Shown: one piece after another, positions 39,606 to 63,104 of the stretch
How the letters are laid out: every line of letters starts with the position of its first letter
Position numbering within the stretch: the stretch's first letter is position 1
Virus record (IMG/VR): IMGVR_UViG_3300025137_005412
Span: 1 to 64,000 of that record
DNA: 64,000 bases
Reading direction: 5' to 3' (one strand)
Source: a virus
The notes under the pieces: generated by a model
Seen by the model: the letters and a program-made list of their open reading frames with translations, nothing else
What the model was told of the DNA's origin: nothing
The model's database searches: none
Position numbers and translations under genes: made by a program

Positions 39606-40812
39606 TTTCTTATCTGAAGCTGCTGACAGCTCACAGAATCTACATCTTACACATGTAGATGAAGACCTATTTGAAAGAGGAGATGAAGGTGCTAAGGCAT
39701 CTATTGAATCTTGTAGAAATGTATTGGATGGCATTGGTACGGGTGAGACAGCACTTACAATCAAATGGGATGGTGCACCTGCTATATTTGCTGGTGTAGA
39801 TCCTGCTGATGGTAAATTCTTTGTATCAACAAAATCAGCATTCAACAAAACACCAATACTATATAAGAGTGCATCTGATAAGAAAAAATTTAAAACAGGT
39901 GATAAGCTTGCAATTGCTCATAAAGAGTTTCAAAAGATTGGTATACCATCAGGAGTTGTATTACAAGGTGACCTTATGTTTACTAAAGGTGATCAGAAAT
40001 ATGAGACTATTGATGATAAAAGATACATAACAGCTCATCCGAATACTATTGTTTATGCTTGGGATGCTGAAAGTGATGTAGGTAAACAAATAAGAAATGC
40101 AAACATAGGTGTTGTTTGGCATACTACATATTCAGGTAAAGACTTACAAAGTATGAAAGCAAGATTCGGAGTAAACGTAAATAAATTAAAAAGCTCACGT
40201 TCTATATGGATGGATGATGCATATTTTAAAGGTGCTAATGTTGCCTTTACTGATGCTGAGAAAATTAAAGTAGAAAAAATCTTATCATCAGCAGAAAGTA
40301 AAATTGGCAAGTTTGATAAGCTTAAAGAAATAATGGCAATGATACCATCAGCTGCTGTTGGTGCTGGAATAAAAACATTTATAAACTCTAATATTAGAAA
40401 AGGTCAATTGCCTACAGCAAGAAAAAATCCAGTAAAAGATTATATTGAATATGTAGATACATATTACGAAGATAAGATTATCAGTAAGTTAAAGACAGAT
40501 AAAGCTATAGACTCTAAGAGAGCTGCAAAGAGACAATTAAGATCTGATCTTGGTAAGAATGCTGCTATTTTAAAAGCTGCATTTGAATATGTAGATCTCA
40601 TTACTCAAGCTAAAGTACAAATAATTAAAAAACTAGTATCGTTGGATAAACAAAAGCAATTTGTTAAAACAAGTAGTGGTTTTAAAGTGACTAATCCAGA
40701 AGGTTATGTAGCTATAAATTCTAAAAAAGGTGAAGCTGTTAAATTTGTAGACAGATTAGAATTTAGCTATAATAATTTTTCTGACAGTGTAATCAAAGGA
40801 TGGCAAAAATGA
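39592..40812 (+). CDS. conserved T4-like protein (DUF6267-like)
   Basis: HLTHVDE, KWDGAPAIF, QGDLMF, PEGYVA, KFVDRLEFS. Confidence 0.75.
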   Translation: MNLASFLSEAADSSQNLHLTHVDEDLFERGDEGAKASIESCRNVLDGIGTGETALTIKWDGAPAIFAGVDPADGKFFVSTKSAFNKTPILYKSASDKKKFKTGDKLAIAHKEFQKIGIPSGVVLQGDLMFTKGDQKYETIDDKRYITAHPNTIVYAWDAESDVGKQIRNANIGVVWHTTYSGKDLQSMKARFGVNVNKLKSSRSIWMDDAYFKGANVAFTDAEKIKVEKILSSAESKIGKFDKLKEIMAMIPSAAVGAGIKTFINSNIRKGQLPTARKNPVKDYIEYVDTYYEDKIISKLKTDKAIDSKRAAKRQLRSDLGKNAAILKAAFEYVDLITQAKVQIIKKLVSLDKQKQFVKTSSGFKVTNPEGYVAINSKKGEAVKFVDRLEFSYNNFSDSVIKGWQK

Positions 40813-41045
40813 AAACTATTGTAGTAATAACTGCTTTGTTATGGTATGCAAATAATCCTGTCCAAATGCAAACAGACTGGCCAGGTGGTGAATTTGAAAC
40901 GTTATATGAATGTAGAGAGTTTCTGCACTCTAATAAAGTAATGCTTACATTAGGCTTATTTGAAAAGCACATAGAAGATGAAGAAGGTAATCATCTGTTA
41001 AGTTGGGAGTACTTCTGCGAATCTAGATCTTTTACTGATACATAG
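40809..41045 (+). CDS. small exported hypothetical protein
   Basis: Hydrophobic N-terminus, F.TL.EC...C. Confidence 0.55.
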   Translation: MKTIVVITALLWYANNPVQMQTDWPGGEFETLYECREFLHSNKVMLTLGLFEKHIEDEEGNHLLSWEYFCESRSFTDT

Positions 41046-41059
41046 GAATTAAATATAGT

Positions 41060-41968
41060 ATGAGTATATTAGATGGCCTTACAAAAGAATACATCATGGA
41101 AAATAGCTCCTTATTAGGAGATTATAAACATGTGATACACAACCTTGATATTCCATTATTTTTCAATCCAGCCAATACAGATCCTATTAACTTTGGTTTG
41201 GCTTTTGATCTAGTGGTAGCTGGTTGGATTAATTCATTTCCAGCAGTAAGAGGTGTAAATGTCTTTCACCCTGTTCAAGAAGGAAAAACATTAATGAGAT
41301 TTGATGAAACCCAAGAAAACTTTGAGAATCAAAAATATATTAGATTTCCACCACATTCACCTATTAATTATGAACCCTATATACATGTCTCTGAAAATGG
41401 TATTGATTTTAAGTCAAAAGCTAAAGCCGCTAGAGGTGAAACAACTAAAGACACAGTAGATTTTGAATTAGAGAATGTTATGGTTGGATTTAATAATGAA
41501 ATAGTCAGAAGTCATGAACATTCAGGTGATGATAATAATGCACGTATATTTTTAGGTCCACAAAGATGTCTAGATACTAACTGGAGATTACCTGAAGCAT
41601 CATATAAACGCAGATTAGTAAAAGATAAAGATATATTTGATATAGGTTATCATTTTAGTTCTACTGATGGTGATAAACAAATGTCAGGTAGATATGAAGA
41701 AAAATGTTTTGCAGGTAAAAACACATTTAACTTTATGAATTGGCATAACAAATATCTTGGTTCGCCTAAACTTGATAAGGTTATAAGAAGAATGGCACAA
41801 TGTAAAGAATTCCATGGTACACTCGGAGGTTTATCCTTCTTAGCATTATCAATGAAGATACCTACAACAATACACACAAATCCAAGAATGACTTGGACAC
41901 CACAAAAGAAAGTTATGAAAACATTAGCACGTAGAAGTGGTGCAACATTTATGGAGGCAACAGCATAA
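41060..41968 (+). CDS. hypothetical, GT-B/GT9-like C-terminal motif
   Basis: FHGTLGGLSFLALSMKIP resembles FIGNDSGLMHLAxALGxP. Confidence 0.45.
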   Translation: MSILDGLTKEYIMENSSLLGDYKHVIHNLDIPLFFNPANTDPINFGLAFDLVVAGWINSFPAVRGVNVFHPVQEGKTLMRFDETQENFENQKYIRFPPHSPINYEPYIHVSENGIDFKSKAKAARGETTKDTVDFELENVMVGFNNEIVRSHEHSGDDNNARIFLGPQRCLDTNWRLPEASYKRRLVKDKDIFDIGYHFSSTDGDKQMSGRYEEKCFAGKNTFNFMNWHNKYLGSPKLDKVIRRMAQCKEFHGTLGGLSFLALSMKIPTTIHTNPRMTWTPQKKVMKTLARRSGATFMEATA

Positions 41969-50585: not shown

Positions 50586-50756
50586 ACTGTGATATATTTG
50601 TCACAGTTGTCAATAAAAACACTCTTAAAGTACTAAGTAGTTGTTTTCTAATAACAAAATAATCTAAAAAAACTGCAGTTTAATGTAAAAAACGTTGTAC
50701 ATTACCGTATAACCTGTATAGAATAGTACATATAACTGATTAACAAAGGAGAATAT
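50586..50756 (+). promoter_or_regulatory. early promoter cassette copy A
   Basis: ACTGTGA-N8-TCACAGT palindrome, IHF-like box, TGTACA-17-TAGAAT, GATTAACAAAGGAGAATATATG. Confidence 0.75.
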
Positions 50757-51038
50757 ATGACAATTAATATAACTACAGGATATGAATACACTGGTTCAAA
50801 TGCAGATGCATGCGGTGATATTGAAGAAGTTTGTACATTTAAACAAGGTATCAAACACTTTGGCATTAGCGGTGGACAAGTTAAAGGCATGAAAGCAGTT
50901 GCTAGATTGGTAAGATACAGAATAGAAGAAGATGATGACGGTAAAGAAATCAAACGTCCAGTATACTTCTCAGTATTTGATGCTAATGAGTTTGCTGCTA
51001 GAAAAGCTTTACTTAAACCAACTAAGAGGGTAGCATAA
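50757..51038 (+). CDS. ArdC N-terminal-like (ssDNA-binding) protein
   Basis: N.TTG..Y.GSN, TFKQ, GQVKGMK, YFSVF. Confidence 0.55.
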   Translation: MTINITTGYEYTGSNADACGDIEEVCTFKQGIKHFGISGGQVKGMKAVARLVRYRIEEDDDGKEIKRPVYFSVFDANEFAARKALLKPTKRVA

Positions 51039-51352: not shown

Positions 51353-51796
51353 ATGCAACTTATAATAGAAACACAATATATGGAAAACTACAATGTAGAA
51401 AATCCTGGCCAAGGTCAAGATAGATGGAAATATAAAGGTGGTTCCACTTATAAGGTGCAGGATGTTGACATTAACATGGACTTTAAGAAATACATTAAGA
51501 CACATCTAGCTCCGAAGATAGAGTATGAGTCAGATATGTCTCAAGAATATATTCTTGACTGGTCCATCGTGTCAGATGACTATCTGTCAGACTTTGAAAA
51601 GTCTCAACTTGAATATGAAGGTTTTAAGGGCTATCAAGAACCTAAGATCTATATTGAAGATGATAAGATGACTAAGATCAAAGAGTTTGAGGGTCATCGT
51701 GGTAGAAATAGACACGTGTGGGAATGGTTTGCTGATGGTTCTGAATGGGTATACAATAAAGCATTATCATTTGAACTAACAAGAAGGGTAGCATAA
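51353..51796 (+). CDS. conserved phage hypothetical protein
   Basis: TQYMENY, WKYKGGSTY. Confidence 0.7.
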   Translation: MQLIIETQYMENYNVENPGQGQDRWKYKGGSTYKVQDVDINMDFKKYIKTHLAPKIEYESDMSQEYILDWSIVSDDYLSDFEKSQLEYEGFKGYQEPKIYIEDDKMTKIKEFEGHRGRNRHVWEWFADGSEWVYNKALSFELTRRVA

Positions 51797-52245
51797 TGGG
51801 CGATTACGTAATATTCGATGTAGATGGTACATTGATGGACATTACTCACAGACGTAAGTTTGTACAGAGTAGTCCAAAAGACTGGGATTCATTCAATGAT
51901 CCTAAGAATGTAGAGAAAGATACACCTATTGAAGAGGTGTTTGAGCTTGCTAGACTATTATCTAAGCGAAACTATATAGTCATATCAAGTGGTAGAAAGA
52001 AGAAGCTAAGGGATCTGACTATGAAGCAGATAAGAGCCAATGGACTTGACCCTGAACTAGCACTCTTTCGAAGTGATACAGACTTTAGGCCAGATCATGA
52101 GCTTAAACGTGATCATCTGCAGAAGATGATACTTCACTTTAATGACGAGTTCCCACGTATGGCCTTTGATGATAGAGATTCAGTGGTAGATATGTGGCGA
52201 GAGAATGGTATCAAGACCTTTCAGCCTGAAAGAGGTAATTTTTAA
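51796..52245 (+). CDS. HAD-family polynucleotide 3'-phosphatase (PseT C-terminal-like)
   Basis: FDVDGTL, SGR, RPDHELK, FDDRDSVVDMWR. Confidence 0.85.
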   Translation: MGDYVIFDVDGTLMDITHRRKFVQSSPKDWDSFNDPKNVEKDTPIEEVFELARLLSKRNYIVISSGRKKKLRDLTMKQIRANGLDPELALFRSDTDFRPDHELKRDHLQKMILHFNDEFPRMAFDDRDSVVDMWRENGIKTFQPERGNF

Positions 52246-52283
52246 CACAATAAGGTATAATAATAATACAGGAGAAAACACAC

Positions 52284-52451
52284 ATGATTGACGTACTTAA
52301 TGAGATAGAATATCTAGAAAAGATCAAAGACGCTGCAGAAGATAAAGACTTCGCAAAGGTTATAGAGCTATGTAGAGACAAGATACATGATAATGTCAAG
52401 GTAGTAAAAGACTTTGAATTTGCAAATCACCTAGATGAAAACAGCAACTAA
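52284..52451 (+). CDS. 55-aa hypothetical (not in ORF track)
   Basis: AGGAG RBS; MIDVLNEIEYLEKIK...DENSN*. Confidence 0.55.
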   Translation: MIDVLNEIEYLEKIKDAAEDKDFAKVIELCRDKIHDNVKVVKDFEFANHLDENSN

Positions 52452-52878
52452 TAGAGAGATAATGGGTAGGCTAGGTGAAGAAGCCCTAGCCGCCAAGTAC
52501 AATTTTACCCTGTCGGATGACAAGTACGATATGGAAAAAGATGCGATAGATGAGAGTGGTAATCGAGTAGAGATTAAGACTCAGAATCGTCATCCTGCCG
52601 GGTATTTTACGGTCAACCTTGCCAATGTTAATCAGTTGAAGAAGTGTGTAGAGGTTGACCGTCTTTTGTTTCTCGAGTATGACAACAGTGATACTCTTAA
52701 AGTATGGGAATGTCCAAAGAATGATAAGGCCAGAAGAGCTAAGACAATCAGAACACGTGATGGTAGAGCCATGGCTGGATTCCCAATAGATGAGATGGAG
52801 ATGATCGAGGAGATGCAAGATAAGGAACTATCACGCATGTTTAAGCAACTATCACAGTCAAAGGTCATTGATGTATAA
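52435..52878 (+). CDS. PD-(D/E)xK nuclease-like protein
   Basis: GRLGE, D..KD....VEIKT. Confidence 0.55.
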   Translation: MKTATNREIMGRLGEEALAAKYNFTLSDDKYDMEKDAIDESGNRVEIKTQNRHPAGYFTVNLANVNQLKKCVEVDRLLFLEYDNSDTLKVWECPKNDKARRAKTIRTRDGRAMAGFPIDEMEMIEEMQDKELSRMFKQLSQSKVIDV

Positions 52879-53188
52879 TCCACTTCCACAGTTTCTTACT
52901 CTTAAAGAGTCAGTAATACATGGTCTTGGATGCTTTGCACGAGAGAGTATACCATCACAGTTCATTATCGGTGTGACACATGTATACCTTGATCATAAGA
53001 TCATAAGAACACCACTTGGTGGTTTTATCAACCATGCCGTACTCTCAAACTGTGTACTCGAAGATGGATATCTCAACCAGGATGATGAGATTATCAACAT
53101 GTACAAGTGTAAACGAATCATGACAACAAGATTAATTAACCCCGGTGAGGAGCTAACACTCACCTACAAGATGTACGACCCGACATGA
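52868..53188 (+). CDS. SET-domain protein (lysine methyltransferase-like)
   Basis: HGLGCFA, GGFINH..NC, I.PGEELTLTY. Confidence 0.85.
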   Translation: MMYNPLPQFLTLKESVIHGLGCFARESIPSQFIIGVTHVYLDHKIIRTPLGGFINHAVLSNCVLEDGYLNQDDEIINMYKCKRIMTTRLINPGEELTLTYKMYDPT

Positions 53189-53239
53189 CACCATTAGAAA
53201 CACTCTTAATTCTATATCTCGGCACACTCATACTTTTCA

Positions 53240-53614
53240 GTGGTACGCCGAAGATCTAACAAGCTCGGTAAGGCCTATGTAAGACTCTTTTGTTTTGCAG
53301 GGATAGGCGTTAAACAGAGTAAAGATCAGAAGAATTCACATGAACACGAGGTTCGCGCCAGAAACATATACCCAGGAGAGTACGTAGGTGGTCCCATTGA
53401 CCCCATTCATAACGATTCTGACCTGTATCCACAGATACTATACAACTATAACAACAAGAAAGATAGTAAACCAATCGTGTATATACCATTAGATGATACA
53501 CCGATACACTTAGAACCATTCAAATCATTATGTCTATATCTACTACTCAGCACTATATCAATACTGTTTATAGGTGGTCTGATGTACCTCCTAAGTGTTC
53601 TGATCACTCCCTGA
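53240..53614 (+). CDS. possible membrane protein (start uncertain)
   Basis: C-terminal hydrophobic segment; GTG start lacks a clear RBS and 5' part is structured. Confidence 0.35.
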   Translation: MVRRRSNKLGKAYVRLFCFAGIGVKQSKDQKNSHEHEVRARNIYPGEYVGGPIDPIHNDSDLYPQILYNYNNKKDSKPIVYIPLDDTPIHLEPFKSLCLYLLLSTISILFIGGLMYLLSVLITP

Positions 53615-53742
53615 GCTCCCGTGCATTGGTGCTCGGTGTTCAATGTGTATTTAAAAATACAGCTGAAAATAGCCGGTACGAGGGCTCTATAGACCCTTCT
53701 AAACACCACCGAGAGATGCCGACTAAATCCACAGGGAGCCTC
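53613..53742. other. GC-rich multi-branched secondary structure (candidate ncRNA or cis element)
   Basis: GCTCCC/GGGAGC and CTCGGTG/CACCGAG enclose three small hairpins. Confidence 0.45.
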
Positions 53743-53797
53743 GGAATATCACGGCCGACACCCCTCTATAGCACACGAGTACAAAAAACTCATAAAA

Positions 53798-53956
53798 ACA
53801 GTGATAAAAATGTCACAGTAGGGAATAAAAATGACGGCTGTGGTCTAAGTGGTTGATTTCTAATAACAAAATAATCTAAAAAAATGCATAAAGTTGTTTA
53901 CATGCTCGCCGAACTGTATAGAATAGGCTATATCAATGATTAACAAAGGTAAATAT
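53798..53956 (+). promoter_or_regulatory. early promoter cassette copy B
   Basis: GTGA-N8-TCAC, exact IHF box 53846-53858, GTTTAC-17-TAGAAT, GATTAACAAAGG. Confidence 0.75.
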
Positions 53957-54136
53957 ATGACAGAAAAAATGAAAGCGGCATTTCAAAAAGCCGTAACCAA
54001 CCCAGAAAACTTGAATCTTGATGGTTCAATTAACTGGAACTTTGTAGATGCAGATGTGTATCATGAAGTAGACCCTGATGAAACTACTGTACATTACAAT
54101 AAGTTTCATATGCTTTGTAATTCTTTTAAACTTTAA
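53957..54136 (+). CDS. small early protein
   Basis: N...DGSINWNFVDADVY; start matches cassette copies A and C. Confidence 0.7.
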   Translation: MTEKMKAAFQKAVTNPENLNLDGSINWNFVDADVYHEVDPDETTVHYNKFHMLCNSFKL

Positions 54137-54153
54137 CAGCGAGGACAATAACC

Positions 54154-54342
54154 ATGAGTAAAATGAATCAACTATACCTAGAACTAAGCGAACGTGCACA
54201 GGACTATATCAGCGACTTTGCTGATAAGAAGTACTTCACATTATTAGATGCCAAGGATGCCTACCTTGATATATACGGCGAGTCAGCTGCTCCCATCTTT
54301 GAACAAGAATGCGAAACAGCTAGCGAGATAGGTATCATATAA
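54154..54342 (+). CDS. small early protein
   Basis: GAGG RBS. Confidence 0.6.
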   Translation: MSKMNQLYLELSERAQDYISDFADKKYFTLLDAKDAYLDIYGESAAPIFEQECETASEIGII

Positions 54343-54455
54343 TGCTTGAAACAATCTTATACTGGGTAATATTCCCAACTATGGGCTTCACATTCTATTG
54401 TGCATGTGTAGCCCTATACCTACATACAAAAGAAATCTTTAAGGAGGATATATAA
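54342..54455 (+). CDS. 37-aa membrane peptide (not in ORF track)
   Basis: TAATG-coupled at both ends; MLETILYWVIFPTMGFTFYCACVALYLHTKEIFKEDI*. Confidence 0.55.
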   Translation: MLETILYWVIFPTMGFTFYCACVALYLHTKEIFKEDI

Positions 54456-54964
54456 TGGCTAAATCAGGCTACAAACAACCAAATACAATCGAAGAAGCTG
54501 TCAAGGGTCTTACCCCTGTGGTAAAGAAATTTGCAAGACAGTATACCCGTAATCACTATCACCTGTACGAAGACCTCATGCAGGATGGTTTTATGGGTAT
54601 CTGTGAGGCATGGGAAAAGTTTGACCATACCAAGGGTGCCAGCTTTACCACCTACGCATGGTTCTATATCCGTAAGAAGATGCAGACCACGGTAGATCCC
54701 TTTTGGAAATGGGATAATAAGACGGTGCCAGAAGACTGGGCTCCCGATAGTGGCTATGAGCATAGCTTCGATGGCTTCGCCGCAGTACAGGCATTCCATC
54801 AGTTAAATGAGTATGAGCAGAAGCTTATCATGCTCAGAACCGAGGGCTATACCTTTAGTGAGATAGCTAAGACCCTTAATAAAGAATCACCTAAGAAGCG
54901 ATCTCTGAATAAGATCAGGTCTGAAATACTTGAGATACAAGATCGCCTGGTAGCAGAAGAATAG
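54455..54964 (+). CDS. sigma-70 family RNA polymerase sigma factor (regions 2 and 4)
   Basis: EDLMQDGFMGI.EA.EKFD..KGASFTTYA..YIR; EGYTFSEIAK HTH. Confidence 0.88.
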   Translation: MAKSGYKQPNTIEEAVKGLTPVVKKFARQYTRNHYHLYEDLMQDGFMGICEAWEKFDHTKGASFTTYAWFYIRKKMQTTVDPFWKWDNKTVPEDWAPDSGYEHSFDGFAAVQAFHQLNEYEQKLIMLRTEGYTFSEIAKTLNKESPKKRSLNKIRSEILEIQDRLVAEE

Positions 54965-54979
54965 TACTAGGTAGGTAAT

Positions 54980-55016
54980 CCCATCAAATACCCGAGACCG
55001 TTAGGTATTTGGTGGG
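54980..55016. terminator. 13-bp hairpin at the convergent strand junction
   Basis: CCCATCAAATACC-N11-GGTATTTGGTGGG. Confidence 0.6.
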
Positions 55017-55080
55017 GCAAAAGTCCCGGGAAGGTCGTCCGTGCTTAGCTCCGAAGAGATTTTTTTTCACCAGGATTTTT

Positions 55081-56328
55081 TTACCCGAGTATTGGTGGTA
55101 ATGGTAGAGAGGATTCGTTATCACTTGCCCTCTGGGGATGTTCGGCTAGTATTGGTTTAGCTCCCTCTATATAGGGTGGAGGTGGTGGATTCAATATGAT
55201 CTTCTTCGGTGGTTCTATACCCATAGATTGAAAGTTATTCGGTATCTGTTGTAGTGTATCATTTGAACCGGTAATAGCATGTCTCATTGCATTTCTTTCA
55301 TTCATTTCCTTCTCGAATTGTTGTCTCTGCTGCTCATCTGTTGGATATACTGTATTACCTCCCTGGTCGAATAGACCCATCCAAGGTATATGTATCCTTA
55401 CCGGACCGATAGGAGTATCAATATCGCATTCTAATACCGTGTCTTTACCCTTCGGACCGGCCTTGATCTGTTCGTGCTTCGCCTGTATTCGAAGCTGCAG
55501 TACATCTTTCGGATGCATAAGATCGGGGTAGATGATATTCTCCTGACCCGCCAGCTGTCTCTCGATACTCGCCCGGATATCATCCGGATTATCCTCATAG
55601 GCGATACCTCGGACCTCGGGAGTTATCTTCTTAATATCTACGAGCTCCTCATCATTCTCTATATGTGCCATCAGGTTCTCCCATGTTATCTGATGAAAGT
55701 TATCAAATCCAATGAGTCTCGGAGGTGACTTACCATCGAGTGGATTGACGTGATAGAACTCGGTATCGGGGAACTGTTTAATAATCCACTGATATCTTCT
55801 CTGCCAGTTACGAAATGTAGGTGCTCCGTTGATTACACCTTCCTTCTTCTTGGCATAGTGCTTCATACCCTCATAGAGGTTATTCATCAGGCCATTACTA
55901 TCGGGATTATTGATATCGGCATCGGACTTGATACCAAAGAAGTCATTACCGATGAGAAAGATCTTCTTATGTTCATGTACCTTACAGGCCACATAGGTGG
56001 CGGATGGTCCGGCTGCAAACTTCTCGGGTGTTGGTATCTTCTTGGCTCCGCTTCCAGGTTTAGGAAACCACGTATAGAACCAGTTCGATCTCGGCCAGTT
56101 AGGTGTAGTCTTCAATATAGTACGAGTCATAGGCTCATCAGATGCTACTAATACATGTGGTGCAAACTCTTCTCGATAGAACCAGTTGCAGGCATAGAGT
56201 ATTCCATACTCTTTAAGTGTCTTAATATCCTTATCTTTTCTTGTGATACCGTTACCAATTACCCATGCGTACTGACCGGTCGGTAGTGTCTTCTTACCGG
56301 TACCCTTAATCTTTGGAAGCTTCTTCAT
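55081..56328 (-). CDS. Maf/DUF115/sialyltransferase-like nucleotide-sugar transferase with Pro-rich tail
   Basis: VIGNGITR, YACN..YR, LVASD, AGP.A, IFLIGND. Confidence 0.55.
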   Translation of the reverse strand: MKKLPKIKGTGKKTLPTGQYAWVIGNGITRKDKDIKTLKEYGILYACNWFYREEFAPHVLVASDEPMTRTILKTTPNWPRSNWFYTWFPKPGSGAKKIPTPEKFAAGPSATYVACKVHEHKKIFLIGNDFFGIKSDADINNPDSNGLMNNLYEGMKHYAKKKEGVINGAPTFRNWQRRYQWIIKQFPDTEFYHVNPLDGKSPPRLIGFDNFHQITWENLMAHIENDEELVDIKKITPEVRGIAYEDNPDDIRASIERQLAGQENIIYPDLMHPKDVLQLRIQAKHEQIKAGPKGKDTVLECDIDTPIGPVRIHIPWMGLFDQGGNTVYPTDEQQRQQFEKEMNERNAMRHAITGSNDTLQQIPNNFQSMGIEPPKKIILNPPPPPYIEGAKPILAEHPQRASDNESSLPLPPILG

Positions 56329-57410
56329 ATATACCTCTTCATAAATTTGTTAAGACCCGCATCAACATGTAGAGACCTGTTCATGTTATGTTCTCGATCC
56401 TTATTAGTATTATACCATATATCCTGCCATTCTTTATCACTCAGGTGATATAAACGACTGATCTCCTCGTTCAACCTGTTAAGTCTATTAAGTGGATTAC
56501 GTTCGTTGTCGTATGAATGGTCTATATACCGATCAAAGAACTTCCATCCCTTCCTTCGTAGGTTGTTGATATGATGTTGCTGTGCCCAGTACAGAGAAAG
56601 GTTCCCTGATCTGAGAGCACGAAATGTCTTCTCACTTGCAAATGTAGTTAACGGTCCACCATTGACTCGTGTTTCCGATACGATCTCCAGTTGAAAGTTT
56701 GCTCGTGAATCATAGCTATCTACCATGGCACCATTCTCTCCCGCTATCAGGTCCTGTCCCTCATTAGTTATTCTATTCTTAATAGAACCCCAATTATCAA
56801 AGTGTTTCTTTAATGGTTCACTGATATGCGGTCTCTCGAGCTCGGTAAGTACATGTGGACATCTGATCTCCATCTGCATATTACTATTTACAAGTCTCTT
56901 TAAGAGTTCGATACGATATGTATAGTGTCTTCTCATCCAGAAGAACATACGATACTTCCTACTTACCTTCTGATCTCTTCGATTGTTAGATGGTTCAGGC
57001 TGTGACTGTGATAGATTACAATCAACGAACTTCTTCCAGTATGGAATATAGATCCAGTTCTTATCACAATTCTGAGTAAGTGGTCCTGAATTACAATGCC
57101 AGAAGTTTATGTTATCATAGTTCTTAAACTCATTCTTTACATCAAACCATTCAAGAAACCATGGTTCCATACCGACATTGACTATATAGACTACCTGATC
57201 ATTACCATGCTCATCATACATCTTATTCATATAATCACGAGCTACTTTATAGTCATTAAAGCCACCCATATGTTCAAAGTATATTACCTTATGATTCTTT
57301 GAGAGAGTAGCAAGATGTGGTTGAAAGCAGGATAGAGCTTTAGGTTTGAATGGGTACATCGATGTACCCATTTCTCTGATAAATGAGTTTGCTTGTATTA
57401 GTGGAAACAT
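56325..57410 (-). CDS. putative glycosyltransferase (GT10-like C-terminal motif)
   Basis: IVSET...FASEKT, IDHSYD. Confidence 0.4.
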   Translation of the reverse strand: MFPLIQANSFIREMGTSMYPFKPKALSCFQPHLATLSKNHKVIYFEHMGGFNDYKVARDYMNKMYDEHGNDQVVYIVNVGMEPWFLEWFDVKNEFKNYDNINFWHCNSGPLTQNCDKNWIYIPYWKKFVDCNLSQSQPEPSNNRRDQKVSRKYRMFFWMRRHYTYRIELLKRLVNSNMQMEIRCPHVLTELERPHISEPLKKHFDNWGSIKNRITNEGQDLIAGENGAMVDSYDSRANFQLEIVSETRVNGGPLTTFASEKTFRALRSGNLSLYWAQQHHINNLRRKGWKFFDRYIDHSYDNERNPLNRLNRLNEEISRLYHLSDKEWQDIWYNTNKDREHNMNRSLHVDAGLNKFMKRYI

Positions 57411-58573
57411 TGTTCGGTTCCATACTTTATAATCTTCTTAGTTCGAGGAATATCAAGATCGACATCATCTCCCCAAGGATCAACGAGTATTGAACCATCG
57501 GCAATGGAATCTATTATAAACTGTGAAGGACCACGGCTACAGAGATATACAGCCGGTTCACTCAGATACTTCTCATAATGAATCTTTGGTTGATTAAACA
57601 TATCTATCTGTGCCTCCATATCTTCAATCCATGCAGCGACTAGGAGAGAAGGAGAACCATCCGTGAGTTCAGATTCTGACTTAAAACCATTATCTAGAAA
57701 TACAATCGGTAGATCAAATGTCAAAAGATACTCGGACATCTTCTTAGCTTGAAAATCTCTTGCTTCCATGACCGATGAGAAGAGATCGTACTTAAGTTTA
57801 AGTTCCTCTGATAGAGACTTTAATGCTATATTATCTCGTGGATGACATGGACCACCGTCACCAAGACCAGGCTTCATGTATTTCTCACTGATAATTCTTT
57901 TCTTTGATTTGGCCAGAGCATTACATACCATGTTAGCATCTGTATGACCAATCTCCATTGCTACATCTTGAATCATATTGACAAAGGATATTTTCATAGA
58001 GATAAAAGTATTATAGAATACCTTTATACATTCAGCCTCCTCATATGAACCAGTTTCCCATCTCACTTTCGTAGTGATAATAGGTTTATAGAATTCTTTC
58101 AGTTCTTTAATATCTTCTTCATCACCACCAGCAATCATCATCTCAGGATTTAGAAAATCTTCCTTTACGGTACCCATTGCAATCAGATATGGATTGTATG
58201 CGAGTCTATAATTTTCAGGTATGTCGATCAATCTGTTTCTAAATGTGGTAGGTAATACAGTAGAGATTACAGTAACGAGTGCGTTGGGAGCGGCATAGTC
58301 ATTGAGATCTATGAGTACATCTTCAAGAGATGAGTAATCAAAATCCATTGCGGGTAAATTGTAAGTAGGTTTTTCACCACCATAGTTTTCATGATGTGGT
58401 GTAGGTACGGCAATAAAGATCATCTCAGCATCTTTACATACTTCAGCCATGTCAGTATTCATTTTTATATCATGAATATGAACATCATAGTATTCATTCA
58501 TTACATCAGCAACTGGTTGACCAAGTTTGCCTGCTCCGATAAATGCTACTTTCTTATTTTTTGCCACTGTCAA
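57398..58573 (-). CDS. UDP-glucose/GDP-mannose dehydrogenase family
   Basis: IGAGKLG, IAVPTP, STVLP, KVFYNTFIS.K, GDGGPCHPRD. Confidence 0.9.
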   Translation of the reverse strand: MTVAKNKKVAFIGAGKLGQPVADVMNEYYDVHIHDIKMNTDMAEVCKDAEMIFIAVPTPHHENYGGEKPTYNLPAMDFDYSSLEDVLIDLNDYAAPNALVTVISTVLPTTFRNRLIDIPENYRLAYNPYLIAMGTVKEDFLNPEMMIAGGDEEDIKELKEFYKPIITTKVRWETGSYEEAECIKVFYNTFISMKISFVNMIQDVAMEIGHTDANMVCNALAKSKKRIISEKYMKPGLGDGGPCHPRDNIALKSLSEELKLKYDLFSSVMEARDFQAKKMSEYLLTFDLPIVFLDNGFKSESELTDGSPSLLVAAWIEDMEAQIDMFNQPKIHYEKYLSEPAVYLCSRGPSQFIIDSIADGSILVDPWGDDVDLDIPRTKKIIKYGTEQCFH

Positions 58574-60312: not shown

Positions 60313-60493
60313 TTTTATTTCCTTTTAAGTTTTCAATTCTTTCTTTTAAAAAAGATATAGTAGTATATATGAATCCACAATCATGTGGTTCTAATAATGT
60401 TTCGAAATATTTGATTTCATTTTCTAGTATTTCTATTTTAGCACCATCAGAATATTCCATGGTACCACTATCATTTATTTGTTTATTGTCCAT
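60290..60493 (-). CDS. hypothetical protein
   Basis: PHDCGFIYTTISFL. Confidence 0.6.
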   Translation of the reverse strand: MDNKQINDSGTMEYSDGAKIEILENEIKYFETLLEPHDCGFIYTTISFLKERIENLKGNKNGWPFTK

Positions 60494-62573: not shown

Positions 62574-62915
62574 TTACCTACTTTCTTGGATTAATCTTGG
62601 AGTGTGAGCATTTCTTTCCATTTTTGAAAAGTATTCTGACCACCATTTATCAGTACTAGTTTCTCTGACTTCAGAGGTCTTGATTACTTGTTTTAAAGTA
62701 ATAAGATCTGCTTCATAAAAATCTAATAACATATCAGTGAATGGATTTCTGTCATTTGATTTCCATTTGATTTCATTGCCATCAGCATAAAAATCATCTT
62801 TATATGTTTCTACTGCATTTTGTGTAGTAGACCATTGATAATTGTAGAACTCATCATTTCTCTTATAGTCTCTACCAGCGATAGTCACTTCATTAAATAA
62901 TTTTTTATCTTTCAT
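62574..62915 (-). CDS. hypothetical early protein
   Basis: Start set by cassette RBS AAAGGAGAATATATG; WKSNDRNPF.DML. Confidence 0.65.
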   Translation of the reverse strand: MKDKKLFNEVTIAGRDYKRNDEFYNYQWSTTQNAVETYKDDFYADGNEIKWKSNDRNPFTDMLLDFYEADLITLKQVIKTSEVRETSTDKWWSEYFSKMERNAHTPRLIQESR

Positions 62916-63104
62916 ATATTCTCCTTTGTTAATCATTTATATGTACCATTCTATACAGGTTATACAGTAATGTACAACGTTTTATGCGTTTCTTTAAGAT
63001 TAAATTGTTATAAGAAAACAACTACTTAGACCTAAACTGTTAATAACTTTTAGATTATACTTTAAAATCAACAACTTAAACTTTCGTTTGTTATCAACCA
63101 CTTA
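62916..63104 (-). promoter_or_regulatory. early promoter cassette copy C with three IHF-like boxes
   Basis: Near-identical to copy A from -35 to ATG; WATCAA-N4-TTA at 63066 and 63092, variant at 63016. Confidence 0.75.

What the first reader, a model, noticed from the sequence alone, without database searches (positions are those of the whole stretch)
52000..58500. Symmetric GC and codon gradient centred on the convergent junction near 55 kb
Seen: GC rises and A/T homopolymer runs thin out approaching ~55,000 from both sides (hand counts: 35/60 at 54721-54780, 33/60 at 55441-55500, versus 15/60 at 60361-60420). Lys shifts AAA to AAG and CG dinucleotides become common, across unrelated genes on opposite strands and gradually within one gene (57398-58573). 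A single horizontal transfer would give sharp edges. Inference: position-dependent mutation or selection, e.g. replication origin/terminus, packaging start or genome end, or a zone with different cytosine modification.
Basis: partly seen in the sequence, partly recalled or inferred. Interest (0 to 1): 0.7.

Follow-up and report, generated by a model that had tools for sequence, protein, structure and literature searches.

The report
GC-rich recombination hotspot in marine phage
A 5-6 kb stretch of this uncultured T4-like marine phage is much richer in G and C at silent sites than the rest of its genome, all its relatives share this, and the same stretch is where near-identical phages differ and swap short DNA patches, so it looks like a long-lived recombination hotspot with its own DNA composition rather than a foreign insert.

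Summary
The window is the first 64 kb of a 152-kb T4-like marine myovirus contig with 33.7% GC. The best 5-kb window (52001-57000) has 41.3% GC, against 33.3 +/- 0.8% elsewhere (z about 10), and it is the only such peak in the genome.

- **Where the shift sits:** almost wholly in third codon positions (GC3 0.42 against 0.22) and in non-coding DNA. GC2 and amino-acid composition do not change.
- **Shape:** gene-level GC3 falls on both sides of the sigma-factor gene at the convergent junction. Slopes within genes are about zero, so a smooth ramp and a gene-by-gene staircase cannot be told apart. The claimed gradient inside 57398-58573 is not significant.
- **Conservation:** every relative that keeps the sigma gene at this junction has the hump, including lineages saturated at synonymous sites.
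- **Level of action:** the sequence context of the shift is reverse-complement symmetric (r = 0.83), so it acts on the DNA duplex, not on codons.
- **Diversity:** otherwise identical genomes differ 9-fold to more than 100-fold more here. Segregating sites are 8.4% against about 2%, with block-like mosaics and several contig breaks.
- **No decay signal:** there is no excess of GC-to-AT change.

Best reading: a long-lived short-patch recombination hotspot with GC-biased repair or mutagenesis. That cause is inferred; a direct bias test was not significant. A single gene transfer, codon selection and a genome end are disfavoured. The scan noted similar hotspot-linked GC enrichment in non-phage genomes.

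The parts
52400..57450 (.). Core of the GC hump. GC is about 0.41 and gene GC3 is 0.38-0.49. The dinucleotide signature is distinct, and population diversity and mosaicism are elevated.
   Evidence: Searches give the composition. One search gives delta* 120 against the rest of the genome, with a null maximum of 80. Searches give 8.4% segregating sites and 9-16% four-gamete-incompatible pairs, against 0-0.2% in the flanks.
51353..52245 (+). Left shoulder: a 147-aa ORF and the PNKP-type HAD phosphatase gene (51796-52245). GC3 is 0.32-0.35. A block with 20% allele divergence starts at about 52.0 kb.
   Evidence: (PF25109, E 8e-24).
52435..52878 (+). DUF6998 protein with a small PD-(D/E)XK restriction-endonuclease-like fold. 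GC3 is 0.42. It is a candidate DNA-cutting enzyme inside the hump.
   Evidence: One search shows the invariant D..KD..VEIKTQ motif. One search gives pLDDT 88.4. One search gives top hits Eco15I-N (8q5o, E 1e-5, TM 0.54) and NhoI (8rpx).
52868..53188 (+). SET-domain protein gene, GC3 0.39.
   Evidence: PF00856, E 9e-7; phrog_28741.
53240..53614 (+). Small ORF with a C-terminal hydrophobic helix, GC3 0.38. A homolog sits at the same place in L009. The most diverse stretch of the hump (53.4-53.7 kb) overlaps it.
   Evidence: (tblastn 36% identity, E 1e-9).
53845..53969 (+). One of three copies of a ~130-nt cassette holding a promoter, 5' leader and Shine-Dalgarno site. The other copies are at 50633-50767 (+) and 62903-63029 (-).
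   Evidence: One search finds the promoter-like site TTTACA-16-TAGAAT at 53897-53924.
53936..54136 (+). A 66-aa ORF behind the cassette. It is absent from the deeper relatives L009 and L010. Its GC3 of 0.27 is background-like, which makes a dip inside the hump.
   Evidence: (z = -2.6 against the smooth fit).
54154..54342 (+). A 62-aa conserved ORF, GC3 0.41.
54455..54964 (+). Sigma-70-family factor gene (region 2 plus a weak region 4). It is the GC3 peak in every lineage: 0.49 here, 0.48 in L091, 0.54-0.65 in the 86-92% identity class, and 0.42-0.53 in the 74-76% class.
   Evidence: (PF04542, E 7.5e-15).
54965..55080 (.). Convergent intergenic spacer with GC 0.47 against 0.31 for intergenic DNA elsewhere. 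It lies inside a block with 17% allele divergence (54.8-55.2 kb).
55081..56328 (-). A 415-aa protein of unknown family, GC3 0.44. Two relatives' contigs end inside it.
   Evidence: phrog_30607. The L006 homolog, in another context, has GC3 0.26.
56325..57410 (-). A 361-aa protein of unknown family, GC3 0.38. It is the last gene of the high-diversity block. W-L091 dS drops from 0.205 to 0.059 at its border with the next gene.
57398..58573 (-). UDP-glucose/GDP-mannose dehydrogenase-family gene, forming the right shoulder (GC3 0.29). The claimed within-gene gradient is not significant.

Best explanation
The hump is a locus-bound compositional regime that is actively maintained. It is not a decaying foreign insert. 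It covers about 5 kb plus shoulders, centred on the sigma-factor gene and the convergent junction.

Shown:
- Silent and non-coding sites are GC-enriched, with a reverse-complement-symmetric, DNA-level context signature.
- All syntenic relatives share the regime.
- The same stretch is where otherwise identical genomes differ, in block-like short patches, and where assemblies break.

Inferred: this is a long-lived hotspot of short-patch homologous recombination (gene conversion) between co-infecting relatives. Repair of heteroduplex mismatches there, or the repair synthesis that goes with it, favours G/C. That pushes silent sites to a higher GC equilibrium. The effect fades with distance from where exchanges start, and is modulated gene by gene. 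Recently inserted genes, such as the 66-aa ORF at 53936, still have background composition.
For: Composition
- The peak is unique in the genome (z about 9.8).
- The shift is GC3 0.42 against 0.22, while GC2 (0.337 against 0.343) and GARP/FYMINK amino-acid fractions are unchanged.
- Intergenic GC is 0.35-0.47 against 0.31 elsewhere.

DNA-level action
- Third-position AT-to-GC log-odds across 16 trinucleotide contexts correlate with their reverse complements: r = 0.83, 0 of 20000 permutations. The same-context control gives r = 0.11.
- The dinucleotide signature differs from the rest of the genome (delta* 120; null maximum 80). It is nearly identical in the W and L009 humps (delta* 33), although their dS is about 0.9-2.4.

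Maintenance
- The hump, with sigma as its peak, appears in W, L091, L009/L113, L010 and 12 further metagenome contigs.
- GC-to-AT changes are not in excess: 31 against 40 when polarised, and 27 against 38 among singletons. Pure decay predicts a GC-to-AT share of 0.58-0.72 (p = 0.006-0.01 or lower).
- Alleles 17-20% divergent have equal GC.
- Intergenic GC elsewhere, 0.31, is a proxy for the neutral level, so relaxed codon selection could not lift GC3 to 0.42-0.63.

Recombination and diversity
- Segregating sites are 8.4% against 1.8% and 2.6% in the flanks.
- Four-gamete-incompatible pairs number 1629/17616 (15.6% in the core), against 7/4166 and 0/1151 in the flanks.
- Five within-haplogroup pairs differ at 0.7-1.1% in the hump against 0-0.09% in the flanks (Fisher p <= 2e-14).
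- Shared patches of about 50-300 bp are visible in the variant table.
- An independent sister pair, L009 and L012, differs only at 55.4-57.4 kb.
- W-L091 dS is 0.15-0.33 in the hump against mostly 0.02-0.09 in the flanks, with dN/dS 0.07-0.28.

Background knowledge: T4 recombination hotspots, and co-conversion gradients around Seg endonuclease cuts, are established. This is from my own knowledge and was not tested here.
Against: - No direct GC bias was shown. Recently imported patches give AT-to-GC 28 against GC-to-AT 22 (p = 0.48), and private changes give 18 against 15.
- Polarised counts are small and parsimony is biased towards AT-to-GC in AT-rich DNA. The flanks give a similar ratio.
- Within-gene GC3 slopes are about zero (-0.013 +/- 0.019 per kb) and differ from the between-gene slope at z = 1.96. 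A pure distance-decay process predicts smooth slopes.
- GC and diversity correlate only weakly in 400-bp windows (rho 0.27, p = 0.055).
- A block with 6-7% divergence at 40.8-41.6 kb has no GC rise.
- All sequences are metagenome assemblies, so some of the mosaicism could come from haplotype switching by assemblers.
- GC-biased conversion has not, to my knowledge, been demonstrated for phages. A literature search found nothing on it.
Confidence: 0.4

Rival explanations
1. A mosaic of genes or alleles brought in, repeatedly, from a pool of higher-GC phages or hosts at a plastic site. Each gene keeps its donor's composition, which gives a staircase, and older arrivals have partly ameliorated.
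For: - The profile is staircase-compatible.
- Gene content is flexible. A TonB-dependent receptor gene is inserted in L009. A 66-aa ORF with a mobile promoter cassette is found only in the W clade.
- Allele blocks 17-20% divergent sit in genomes that otherwise differ by 1-2%.
- The dinucleotide signature is distinct.
- A 415-aa homolog exists in a 44% GC phage contig, L007.
Against: - The block is syntenic in all relatives.
- Amino-acid composition and GC2 match the AT-rich rest of the genome.
- The hump and its signature persist beyond synonymous saturation.
- There is no GC-to-AT excess.
- Divergent alleles have identical GC.
- No GC-rich donor was found. The sigma family has only 8 clusters among 5.8 billion proteins, and its distant members have GC3 of 0.32-0.46.
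- The signature does not match L007 or L006 (delta* 214 and 134).
- The newest insertion is AT-rich, the opposite of what this model predicts.
- The 415-aa homolog in L006 has background GC3.
Confidence: 0.17
2. Selection on a physical or functional property of the DNA duplex at this place: GC-rich, poor in A-tracts, and different in flexibility. Candidates are the zone where two convergent transcription units or replication forks meet, an origin, or a packaging landmark.
For: - The signature is strand-symmetric.
- A/T tracts are depleted beyond what composition predicts (6.2 against 10.7 +/- 1.3 per kb).
- AA/TT and GC steps are low, and CG, TA and AT steps are high.
- The feature is conserved in all relatives that have the convergent arrangement.
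- The 415-aa homolog that is not at a convergent junction (L006) lacks the bias.
Against: - Four other convergent junctions in the same genome (about 27.5, 76, 97 and 127 kb) show no hump.
- A 5-7 kb extent across eight or more genes is large for a site-like element.
- No tRNA or known RNA family, and no excess of terminator-like or promoter-like sites, was found.
- Contigs span the region and one assembly closes into a circle here, so it is not a fixed terminus.
- This model does not by itself explain the diversity hotspot.
Confidence: 0.18
3. A local mutational hotspot with a GC-ward spectrum, independent of recombination. An example would be error-prone synthesis or base damage tied to this region being single-stranded or heavily transcribed.
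For: - Synonymous divergence is 4-10 times higher in the hump, under purifying selection.
- Private changes are not AT-biased (18 against 15).
- The shift is mostly in A/G and T/C ratios and depends on context.
Against: - Variants are shared in blocks between haplotypes, not scattered as recurrent hits would be.
- Divergence is very patchy: 1.4% at 55.4-55.9 kb lies between blocks at 6-10%.
- This pattern fits imported tracts better than a uniformly raised mutation rate.
Confidence: 0.12
4. Translational or codon-usage selection on a set of regulatory genes, so that GC-ending codons are preferred for expression.
For: - The shift is concentrated at third codon positions.
- It differs between codon families. 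Lys, Gln, Glu, Ile, Ala, Thr and Pro shift strongly, while Asp, His, Phe, Cys and Gly do not.
Against: - The heterogeneity between families is explained by a reverse-complement-symmetric neighbour context (r = 0.83 against 0.11 for the control), which selection through tRNAs does not predict.
- Non-coding spacers are also GC-enriched.
- The genes are functionally unrelated and lie on both strands.
- No tRNA genes are present in the window.
Confidence: 0.04

Closest known systems
GC-biased gene conversion at recombination hotspots (eukaryotes, and proposed for bacteria by Lassalle et al. 2015; cited from my own knowledge)
   Same: GC enrichment is local, limited to silent and non-coding sites, and independent of strand. 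It peaks at a place of elevated recombination and diversity and fades over a few kb. It leaves amino-acid composition nearly untouched.
   Different: The genome is a phage. No fixation bias towards G/C could be shown here (28 against 22, not significant). The profile may be stepwise by gene. The context signature avoids creating GpC and relieves CpG depletion, and it has no described counterpart. The hotspot has lasted past synonymous saturation, whereas mammalian hotspots turn over quickly.
Hyperplastic regions of T4-type phages with mobile promoter/terminator cassettes (PeSLs; PMC2839356, PMC4122927)
   Same: The phage is T4-like. Gene content varies between close and deep relatives at this site, through the TonB receptor gene and the 66-aa ORF. 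A regulatory cassette of about 130 nt is repeated three times and precedes the inserted ORF. Short-patch exchange occurs between relatives.
   Different: Most genes in the hump are conserved in synteny, not variable. From the abstracts shown by the search (the papers were not read in full) and my own knowledge, PeSL regions are not reported to carry a GC or dinucleotide anomaly. A terminator stem-loop in the cassette was not verified here.
Localized marker exclusion and co-conversion around Seg/Mob homing-endonuclease cuts in T-even phages (from my own knowledge)
   Same: A site-specific cut would create a fixed recombination hotspot in mixed infections, with conversion frequency falling on both sides. 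A small PD-(D/E)XK nuclease-like gene (52435-52878) lies in the hump.
   Different: No GIY-YIG or HNH homing enzyme was found here. The nuclease-like protein resembles methyl-dependent restriction enzymes, and its target is unknown. All relatives carry the gene, so the classic asymmetry between genomes with and without the enzyme is missing.
Horizontally acquired genomic or metaviromic islands with atypical composition
   Same: Atypical GC, codon usage and dinucleotide signature, higher population diversity, and assembly breaks.
   Different: The block is present and syntenic in all relatives. Protein composition is native. No donor was found and there is no decay. No mobility genes are present.

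Membership tests
GC-biased gene conversion hotspot | GC enrichment confined to weakly selected sites (synonymous and non-coding) | tested here: met
   GC3 is 0.42 against 0.22. GC2 is 0.337 against 0.343. Amino-acid classes are unchanged. Intergenic GC is 0.35-0.47 against 0.31.
GC-biased gene conversion hotspot | Co-location with elevated recombination | tested here: met
   Four-gamete incompatibility is 9-16% of site pairs in the hump against 0-0.2% in the flanks. Shared patches are block-like. Within-haplogroup differences are 9-fold to more than 100-fold enriched. Caveat: all sequences are metagenome assemblies.
GC-biased gene conversion hotspot | Excess fixation or transmission of G/C over A/T alleles | tested here: inconclusive
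   Imported patches give AT-to-GC 28 against GC-to-AT 22 (p = 0.48). Polarised substitutions give 40 against 31, but the flanks show a similar ratio.
GC-biased gene conversion hotspot | The process acts on duplex DNA (strand-symmetric) and not on codons | tested here: met
   Reverse-complement symmetry of the context effects gives r = 0.83, with 0 of 20000 permutations as high. The control gives r = 0.11.
Horizontally acquired island | Patchy presence among close relatives | tested here: not met
   The block is fully syntenic in L002/L009, L003/L010, L091 and L094-L098.
Horizontally acquired island | A donor lineage with matching composition | tested here: not met
   The sigma family has 8 clusters in 5.8 billion proteins, all close kin or short marine contigs with GC3 of 0.32-0.46. 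The signature does not match L006, L007 or HTVC008M.
Horizontally acquired island | Ongoing amelioration (excess of GC-to-AT change) | tested here: not met
   The GC-to-AT share is 0.42-0.45 against 0.58-0.72 expected under decay.
Horizontally acquired island | Sharp compositional edges at gene borders | tested here: inconclusive
   The smooth and per-gene models fit equally well. Pooled within-gene slopes are about zero.
T4-type hyperplastic region with PeSL cassettes | Repeated composite regulatory cassettes flanking variable ORFs | tested here: inconclusive
   Three copies of a ~130-nt promoter/leader cassette were found, and one precedes a clade-specific ORF. A terminator stem-loop was not examined, and most hump genes are conserved.
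Replication origin or terminus | A skew switch independent of gene orientation, or origin elements | tested here: inconclusive
   GC and AT skew change sign at 55 kb, but they do so at every change of gene strand in the genome. Origin elements were not searched for.
Genome terminus or packaging start | A fixed physical end at this place | tested here: not met
   W, L094, L095 and L097 span the region. The two ends of the 164-kb contig overlap here by about 270 nt at 84% identity, which gives a circular map broken at the most diverse spot. Read-end data are not available.

The most novel reading that the evidence does not exclude
This is the footprint of GC-biased gene conversion, or of GC-biased recombination-linked repair, at a fixed and evolutionarily long-lived recombination hotspot in a virus. 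Exchanges may be started by a phage-encoded site-specific nuclease (the PD-(D/E)XK protein at 52435-52878) or by collisions at the convergent junction. The repair has a characteristic context rule: AT-to-GC changes are favoured after A or C and before A or G, and creation of GpC is avoided. If so, recombination landscapes in uncultured phages could be read directly from silent-site composition.
Probability: 0.3. Interest if true: 0.8.

Novelty: new variant of a known kind. Interest (0 to 1): 0.6.

Why it matters
Compositional islands in phage genomes are usually read as foreign DNA. Here the evidence points the other way. Native, syntenic genes have been held at a different silent-site equilibrium for longer than synonymous saturation, at the place where relatives exchange short patches and where assemblies fragment.

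If recombination-linked GC bias operates in T4-like phages, three things follow:
- It would add viruses to the debate on how widespread biased gene conversion is.
- It would warn against composition-based calls of horizontal transfer in viromes.
- It would give a sequence-only marker for recombination hotspots, and for assembly weak points, in uncultured phages.

The strand-symmetric context rule is a concrete signature. It could be matched to a repair enzyme.

Tried and rejected
- **Hidden RNA genes:** tRNA and Rfam scans of the window found nothing, so RNA genes do not explain the GC.
- **Cultured relatives:** there are none. blastn found only a 200-nt match of the dehydrogenase gene to Pelagibacter phage HTVC008M. 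The 415-aa protein has no tblastn hit in 50,697 phage records.
- **Convergent junction as the cause:** rejected, because four other junctions show no hump.
- **Codon or tRNA selection:** rejected by the context symmetry.
- **Relaxed codon selection:** rejected, because GC3 in the hump exceeds intergenic GC elsewhere.
- **Single transfer followed by amelioration:** disfavoured.
- **High-GC donor for sigma:** searched for and not found.
- **Genome end:** rejected.
- **Within-gene gradient:** not significant.
- **Direct test for GC bias in recent patches:** not significant.
- **Restriction-type motif counts** (GCNGC, GCGC, CCGG and others): nothing interpretable.
- **PADLOC:** only a sigma region-2 match to MzaA.
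- **The 164-kb record:** The genome search on this ENA record was not possible. Its other end was reached through an identical protein instead.
- **Literature:** the pelagimyophage paper PMC7029224 does not mention this locus or any GC anomaly.

Full report
**What the window is.** The window is bases 1-64000 of a 152,041-bp IMG/VR virus contig, classed as linear and about 85% complete, with 33.7% GC. Earlier notes on the same genome list T4-type structural genes and a curli operon, which are hallmarks of pelagimyophage-like marine myoviruses (PMC7029224). No cultured phage is close. The only DNA match is 200 nt of the dehydrogenase gene to Pelagibacter phage HTVC008M.

**The observation.**
- In 2-kb windows GC climbs from about 0.33 to 0.428 at 55-57 kb and falls back. 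The genome-wide mean is 0.336, SD 0.020.
- The best 5-kb window (52001-57000) has GC 0.413 against 0.333 +/- 0.008 elsewhere, with an outside maximum of 0.352, so z is about 9.8.
- Nothing else in the 152 kb comes near. That includes four other convergent gene junctions at about 27.5, 76, 97 and 127 kb.
- The five highest-GC3 genes of the genome all lie here.
- Gene GC3 runs 0.32, 0.35, 0.42, 0.39, 0.38, 0.27, 0.41, 0.49 on the + strand up to the junction. On the - strand it runs 0.44, 0.38, 0.29, 0.24, 0.18. The genome mean is 0.22.
- Lys AAG is 0.70 against 0.29. CpG observed/expected is 0.74 against 0.42. A/T runs are depleted even beyond what the hump's own composition predicts.

**Gradient or staircase.**
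- The claimed gradient inside 57398-58573 is not significant at third positions (r = -0.04, p = 0.41).
- A 3-parameter smooth hump fits third-position data as well as 16 gene-specific levels. AIC is 3527 against 3534, and residual heterogeneity has p = 0.17.
- The pooled within-gene slope is near zero: +0.006 +/- 0.037 per kb in W, and -0.013 +/- 0.019 over W, L009 and L010. The between-gene slope is about -0.05 (z = 1.96).
- The data lean slightly towards steps at gene borders, so the shape is unresolved.

**What kind of shift it is.**
- It is a silent-site shift. GC3 is 0.42 against 0.22 and GC1 is slightly up (0.49 against 0.45).
- GC2 is unchanged (0.337 against 0.343), and GARP and FYMINK amino-acid fractions are unchanged.
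- Spacers are also raised, to 0.35-0.47 against 0.31.
- Codon families respond unevenly, and consistently so in three lineages. Lys, Gln, Glu, Ile and the T-to-C choice in Ala, Thr, Pro, Val, Ser and Leu shift strongly (lnOR 1.3-2.3). Asp, His, Tyr, Phe, Cys, GGY, CGY and AGY barely move.
- This looked like tRNA-level selection, but it is not. When the third-position shift is tabulated by 5' and 3' neighbours, each A-to-G context matches its reverse-complement T-to-C context: r = 0.83 over 16 pairs, with 0 of 20000 permutations as high. Pairing identical contexts gives r = 0.11.
- The force therefore acts on the DNA duplex.
- In dinucleotide terms the hump has low AA/TT (0.85 against 0.99) and low GC (0.75 against 1.01), and lower CA/TG. 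It has higher CG, TA and AT. Its delta* is 120 against the rest of the genome, when no 5-kb control window exceeds 80.

**Relatives.**
- IMG/VR, ENA, JGI and Logan contigs give a ladder of relatives.
  - Population-level genomes: L091 and L094-L099.
  - A lineage at about 80% amino-acid identity: L002/L009/L113.
  - A lineage at about 70% identity: L003/L010.
  - Further fragments.
- The whole block is syntenic across the junction in all of them.
- All have the hump, and the sigma-factor gene is always its peak. Sigma GC3 is 0.49 in W, 0.48 in L091, 0.54-0.65 in the 86-92% class and 0.42-0.53 in the 74-76% class.
- dS between W and L009 is about 0.9-2.4, and between W and L010 it is saturated. 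Even so, the W and L009 humps share almost the same dinucleotide signature (delta* 33).
- A more distant contig, L006, carries the 415-aa homolog in a co-directional context next to the curli genes. There its GC3 is background-like at 0.26.
- The bias is therefore not intrinsic to the gene family.

**No sign of decay.**
- Changes between W and its 95%-identical relative L091, polarised with L009, L012 and L010, give AT-to-GC 40 against GC-to-AT 31 in the hump.
- Population singletons give 38 against 27.
- A relic decaying towards the genomic equilibrium should show a GC-to-AT share of 0.58 (all sites) to 0.72 (third sites). The observed share is 0.42-0.45 (p = 0.006-0.01 or lower).
- Parsimony with distant outgroups is biased and the counts are small, so this is supporting evidence and not decisive.
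- Alleles that differ by 17-20% (52.0-52.4 kb and 54.8-55.2 kb) have the same GC to within 0.01.
- The one gene that is demonstrably a recent arrival is the 66-aa ORF at 53936-54136. It is absent from L009 and L010 and sits behind a mobile promoter cassette. It is AT-rich (GC3 0.27) in the middle of the hump. That is the opposite of what 'new genes come from GC-rich donors' predicts.

**The new finding: a diversity and recombination hotspot.**
- The population sample falls into two haplogroups. They differ by 1-2% in the flanks and are internally identical there.
- Inside 51.9-57.45 kb, segregating sites rise to 8.4%, against 1.8% and 2.6% in the flanks.
- Site pairs within 1 kb that fail the four-gamete test number 1629 of 17616 (15.6% in the core). 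The flanks give 7 of 4166 and 0 of 1151.
- Five within-haplogroup pairs differ at 0.7-1.1% of hump sites against 0-0.09% of flank sites (Fisher p <= 2e-14).
- The variant table shows shared runs of about 50-300 bp, which is what short imported patches look like and not what scattered recurrent hits look like.
- An independent sister pair, L009 and L012, differs only at 55.4-57.4 kb.
- W-L091 dS is 0.15-0.33 in hump genes against mostly 0.02-0.09 outside, with dN/dS 0.07-0.28. This reflects deeper coalescence or more input, not positive selection.
- Long contigs break here. Two end inside the 415-aa gene and one ends at 51.1 kb. The two ends of a 164-kb assembly overlap by about 270 nt at 84% identity at 53.4-53.6 kb. 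That gives a circular map broken at its most diverse spot, not a physical terminus.

**Mechanism.**
- What is shown: a locus-bound, duplex-level, maintained compositional regime that coincides with a short-patch recombination hotspot.
- What is inferred: the two are causally linked. Repair of heteroduplex mismatches, or the synthesis that accompanies it, would be GC-biased. The effect would fall off with distance from where exchanges begin.
- A direct test on recent patches gave AT-to-GC 28 against GC-to-AT 22, which is not significant.
- GC and diversity correlate only weakly at 400-bp resolution (rho 0.27, p = 0.055).
- One divergent block at 40.8-41.6 kb has no GC rise.
- The near-zero within-gene slopes also sit awkwardly with a pure distance effect.
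- I give this reading about 0.4.
- Rivals are DNA-level selection for a structural property at this junction (0.18), repeated import from an unsampled GC-richer pool (0.17), a recombination-independent mutational hotspot (0.12) and codon selection (0.04).

**A possible initiator.** The DUF6998 protein (52435-52878) has an invariant D..KD..VEIKTQ motif. It folds with pLDDT 88 into a small PD-(D/E)XK nuclease. Its nearest structures are the methyl-dependent restriction enzymes Eco15I-N and NhoI (E 1e-5, TM 0.5). In T-even phages, site-specific endonucleases create fixed recombination hotspots with two-sided co-conversion gradients; this is from my own knowledge. Whether this protein cuts here is untested. 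It may equally be a nuclease that degrades host DNA.

**Comparison with what is known.** The pattern works like GC-biased gene conversion at eukaryotic hotspots, as also proposed for recombining bacterial genes. The defining fixation bias is unproven here. It also shares features with T4-type hyperplastic regions and their mobile regulatory cassettes (PMC2839356, PMC4122927), but those are not known for a compositional anomaly. It fails most tests for a horizontally acquired island. I found no report of such a hump in phages. The scan's earlier notes record analogous GC3-rich recombination hotspots in Giardia and in a CPR bacterium, not in phages.

**Verdict.**
- Observation: confirmed, except for the within-gene gradient.
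- Interpretation: partly supported. It is position- or locus-bound, but it is not an origin or a genome end as far as can be told.
- Novelty: a new variant of a known kind.
- Interest: 0.6.

Noticed in passing
window 50633-50767 (+), 53845-53969 (+), 62903-63029 (-): A cassette of about 130 nt is repeated three times, each copy upstream of a small ORF. It holds a -35-like TTTACA/TGTACA, an extended -10 TGTATAGAAT, a conserved leader, and AAAGGAG followed by ATG. It resembles the mobile promoter cassettes (PeSLs) of T4-type phages. Copies also occur in relative L009.
   Followed up: partly
window 52435-52878 (+): The DUF6998 protein is predicted (pLDDT 88) to be a small PD-(D/E)XK nuclease. Its nearest structures are the 5-methylcytosine-dependent restriction enzymes Eco15I (N-terminal domain) and NhoI. 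It could be a host-DNA or rival-phage nuclease in a phage that appears to modify its own cytosines.
   Followed up: partly
L009:7507-9171 (relative contig IMGVR_UViG_3300020269_000282): A 554-aa TonB-dependent receptor gene (Plug plus beta-barrel) is inserted between the SET-domain gene and the small membrane ORF in a relative. It is absent from this window. This is an unusual auxiliary gene for a phage, and it hints that the host may not be SAR11.
   Followed up: no
L105 end / L091 start (ENA ERZ27315313 k141_1210464), equivalent to window 53,375-53,640: The two ends of a 164,115-bp assembly of a 95%-identical phage overlap by about 270 nt at only 84% identity. This gives a circular map of about 163.8 kb, left unclosed because two strain variants of the most diverse stretch were joined.
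   Followed up: yes
window 54455-54964 (+): The sigma-70-family gene is very rare. It has only 8 clusters among 5.8 billion proteins, all from marine metagenomes. Its region 2 also matches the PADLOC model MzaA (E 1e-8).
   Followed up: partly
L006:4858-11776 (IMGVR_UViG_3300025608_000969): In a more distant relative, the dehydrogenase and the 415-aa homolog run co-directionally straight into the curli operon (CsgF, CsgG, curlin, FecR). The 361-aa and sigma genes are absent. The convergent junction of this window is therefore a derived rearrangement or inversion.
   Followed up: no
window 40800-41600: A block with 6-7.5% divergence separates the two haplogroups in an otherwise 0-2% divergent flank. 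It has no GC change, so allele replacement elsewhere does not by itself raise GC.
   Followed up: no
whole genome outside 50-60 kb: CpG is strongly depleted (observed/expected 0.42) with a CA/TG excess (1.21). GCWGC is 2.4-fold over-represented. Both features are relieved or absent in the hump. Their cause is unknown; modified-cytosine chemistry, restriction avoidance and codon pairs are candidates.
   Followed up: no
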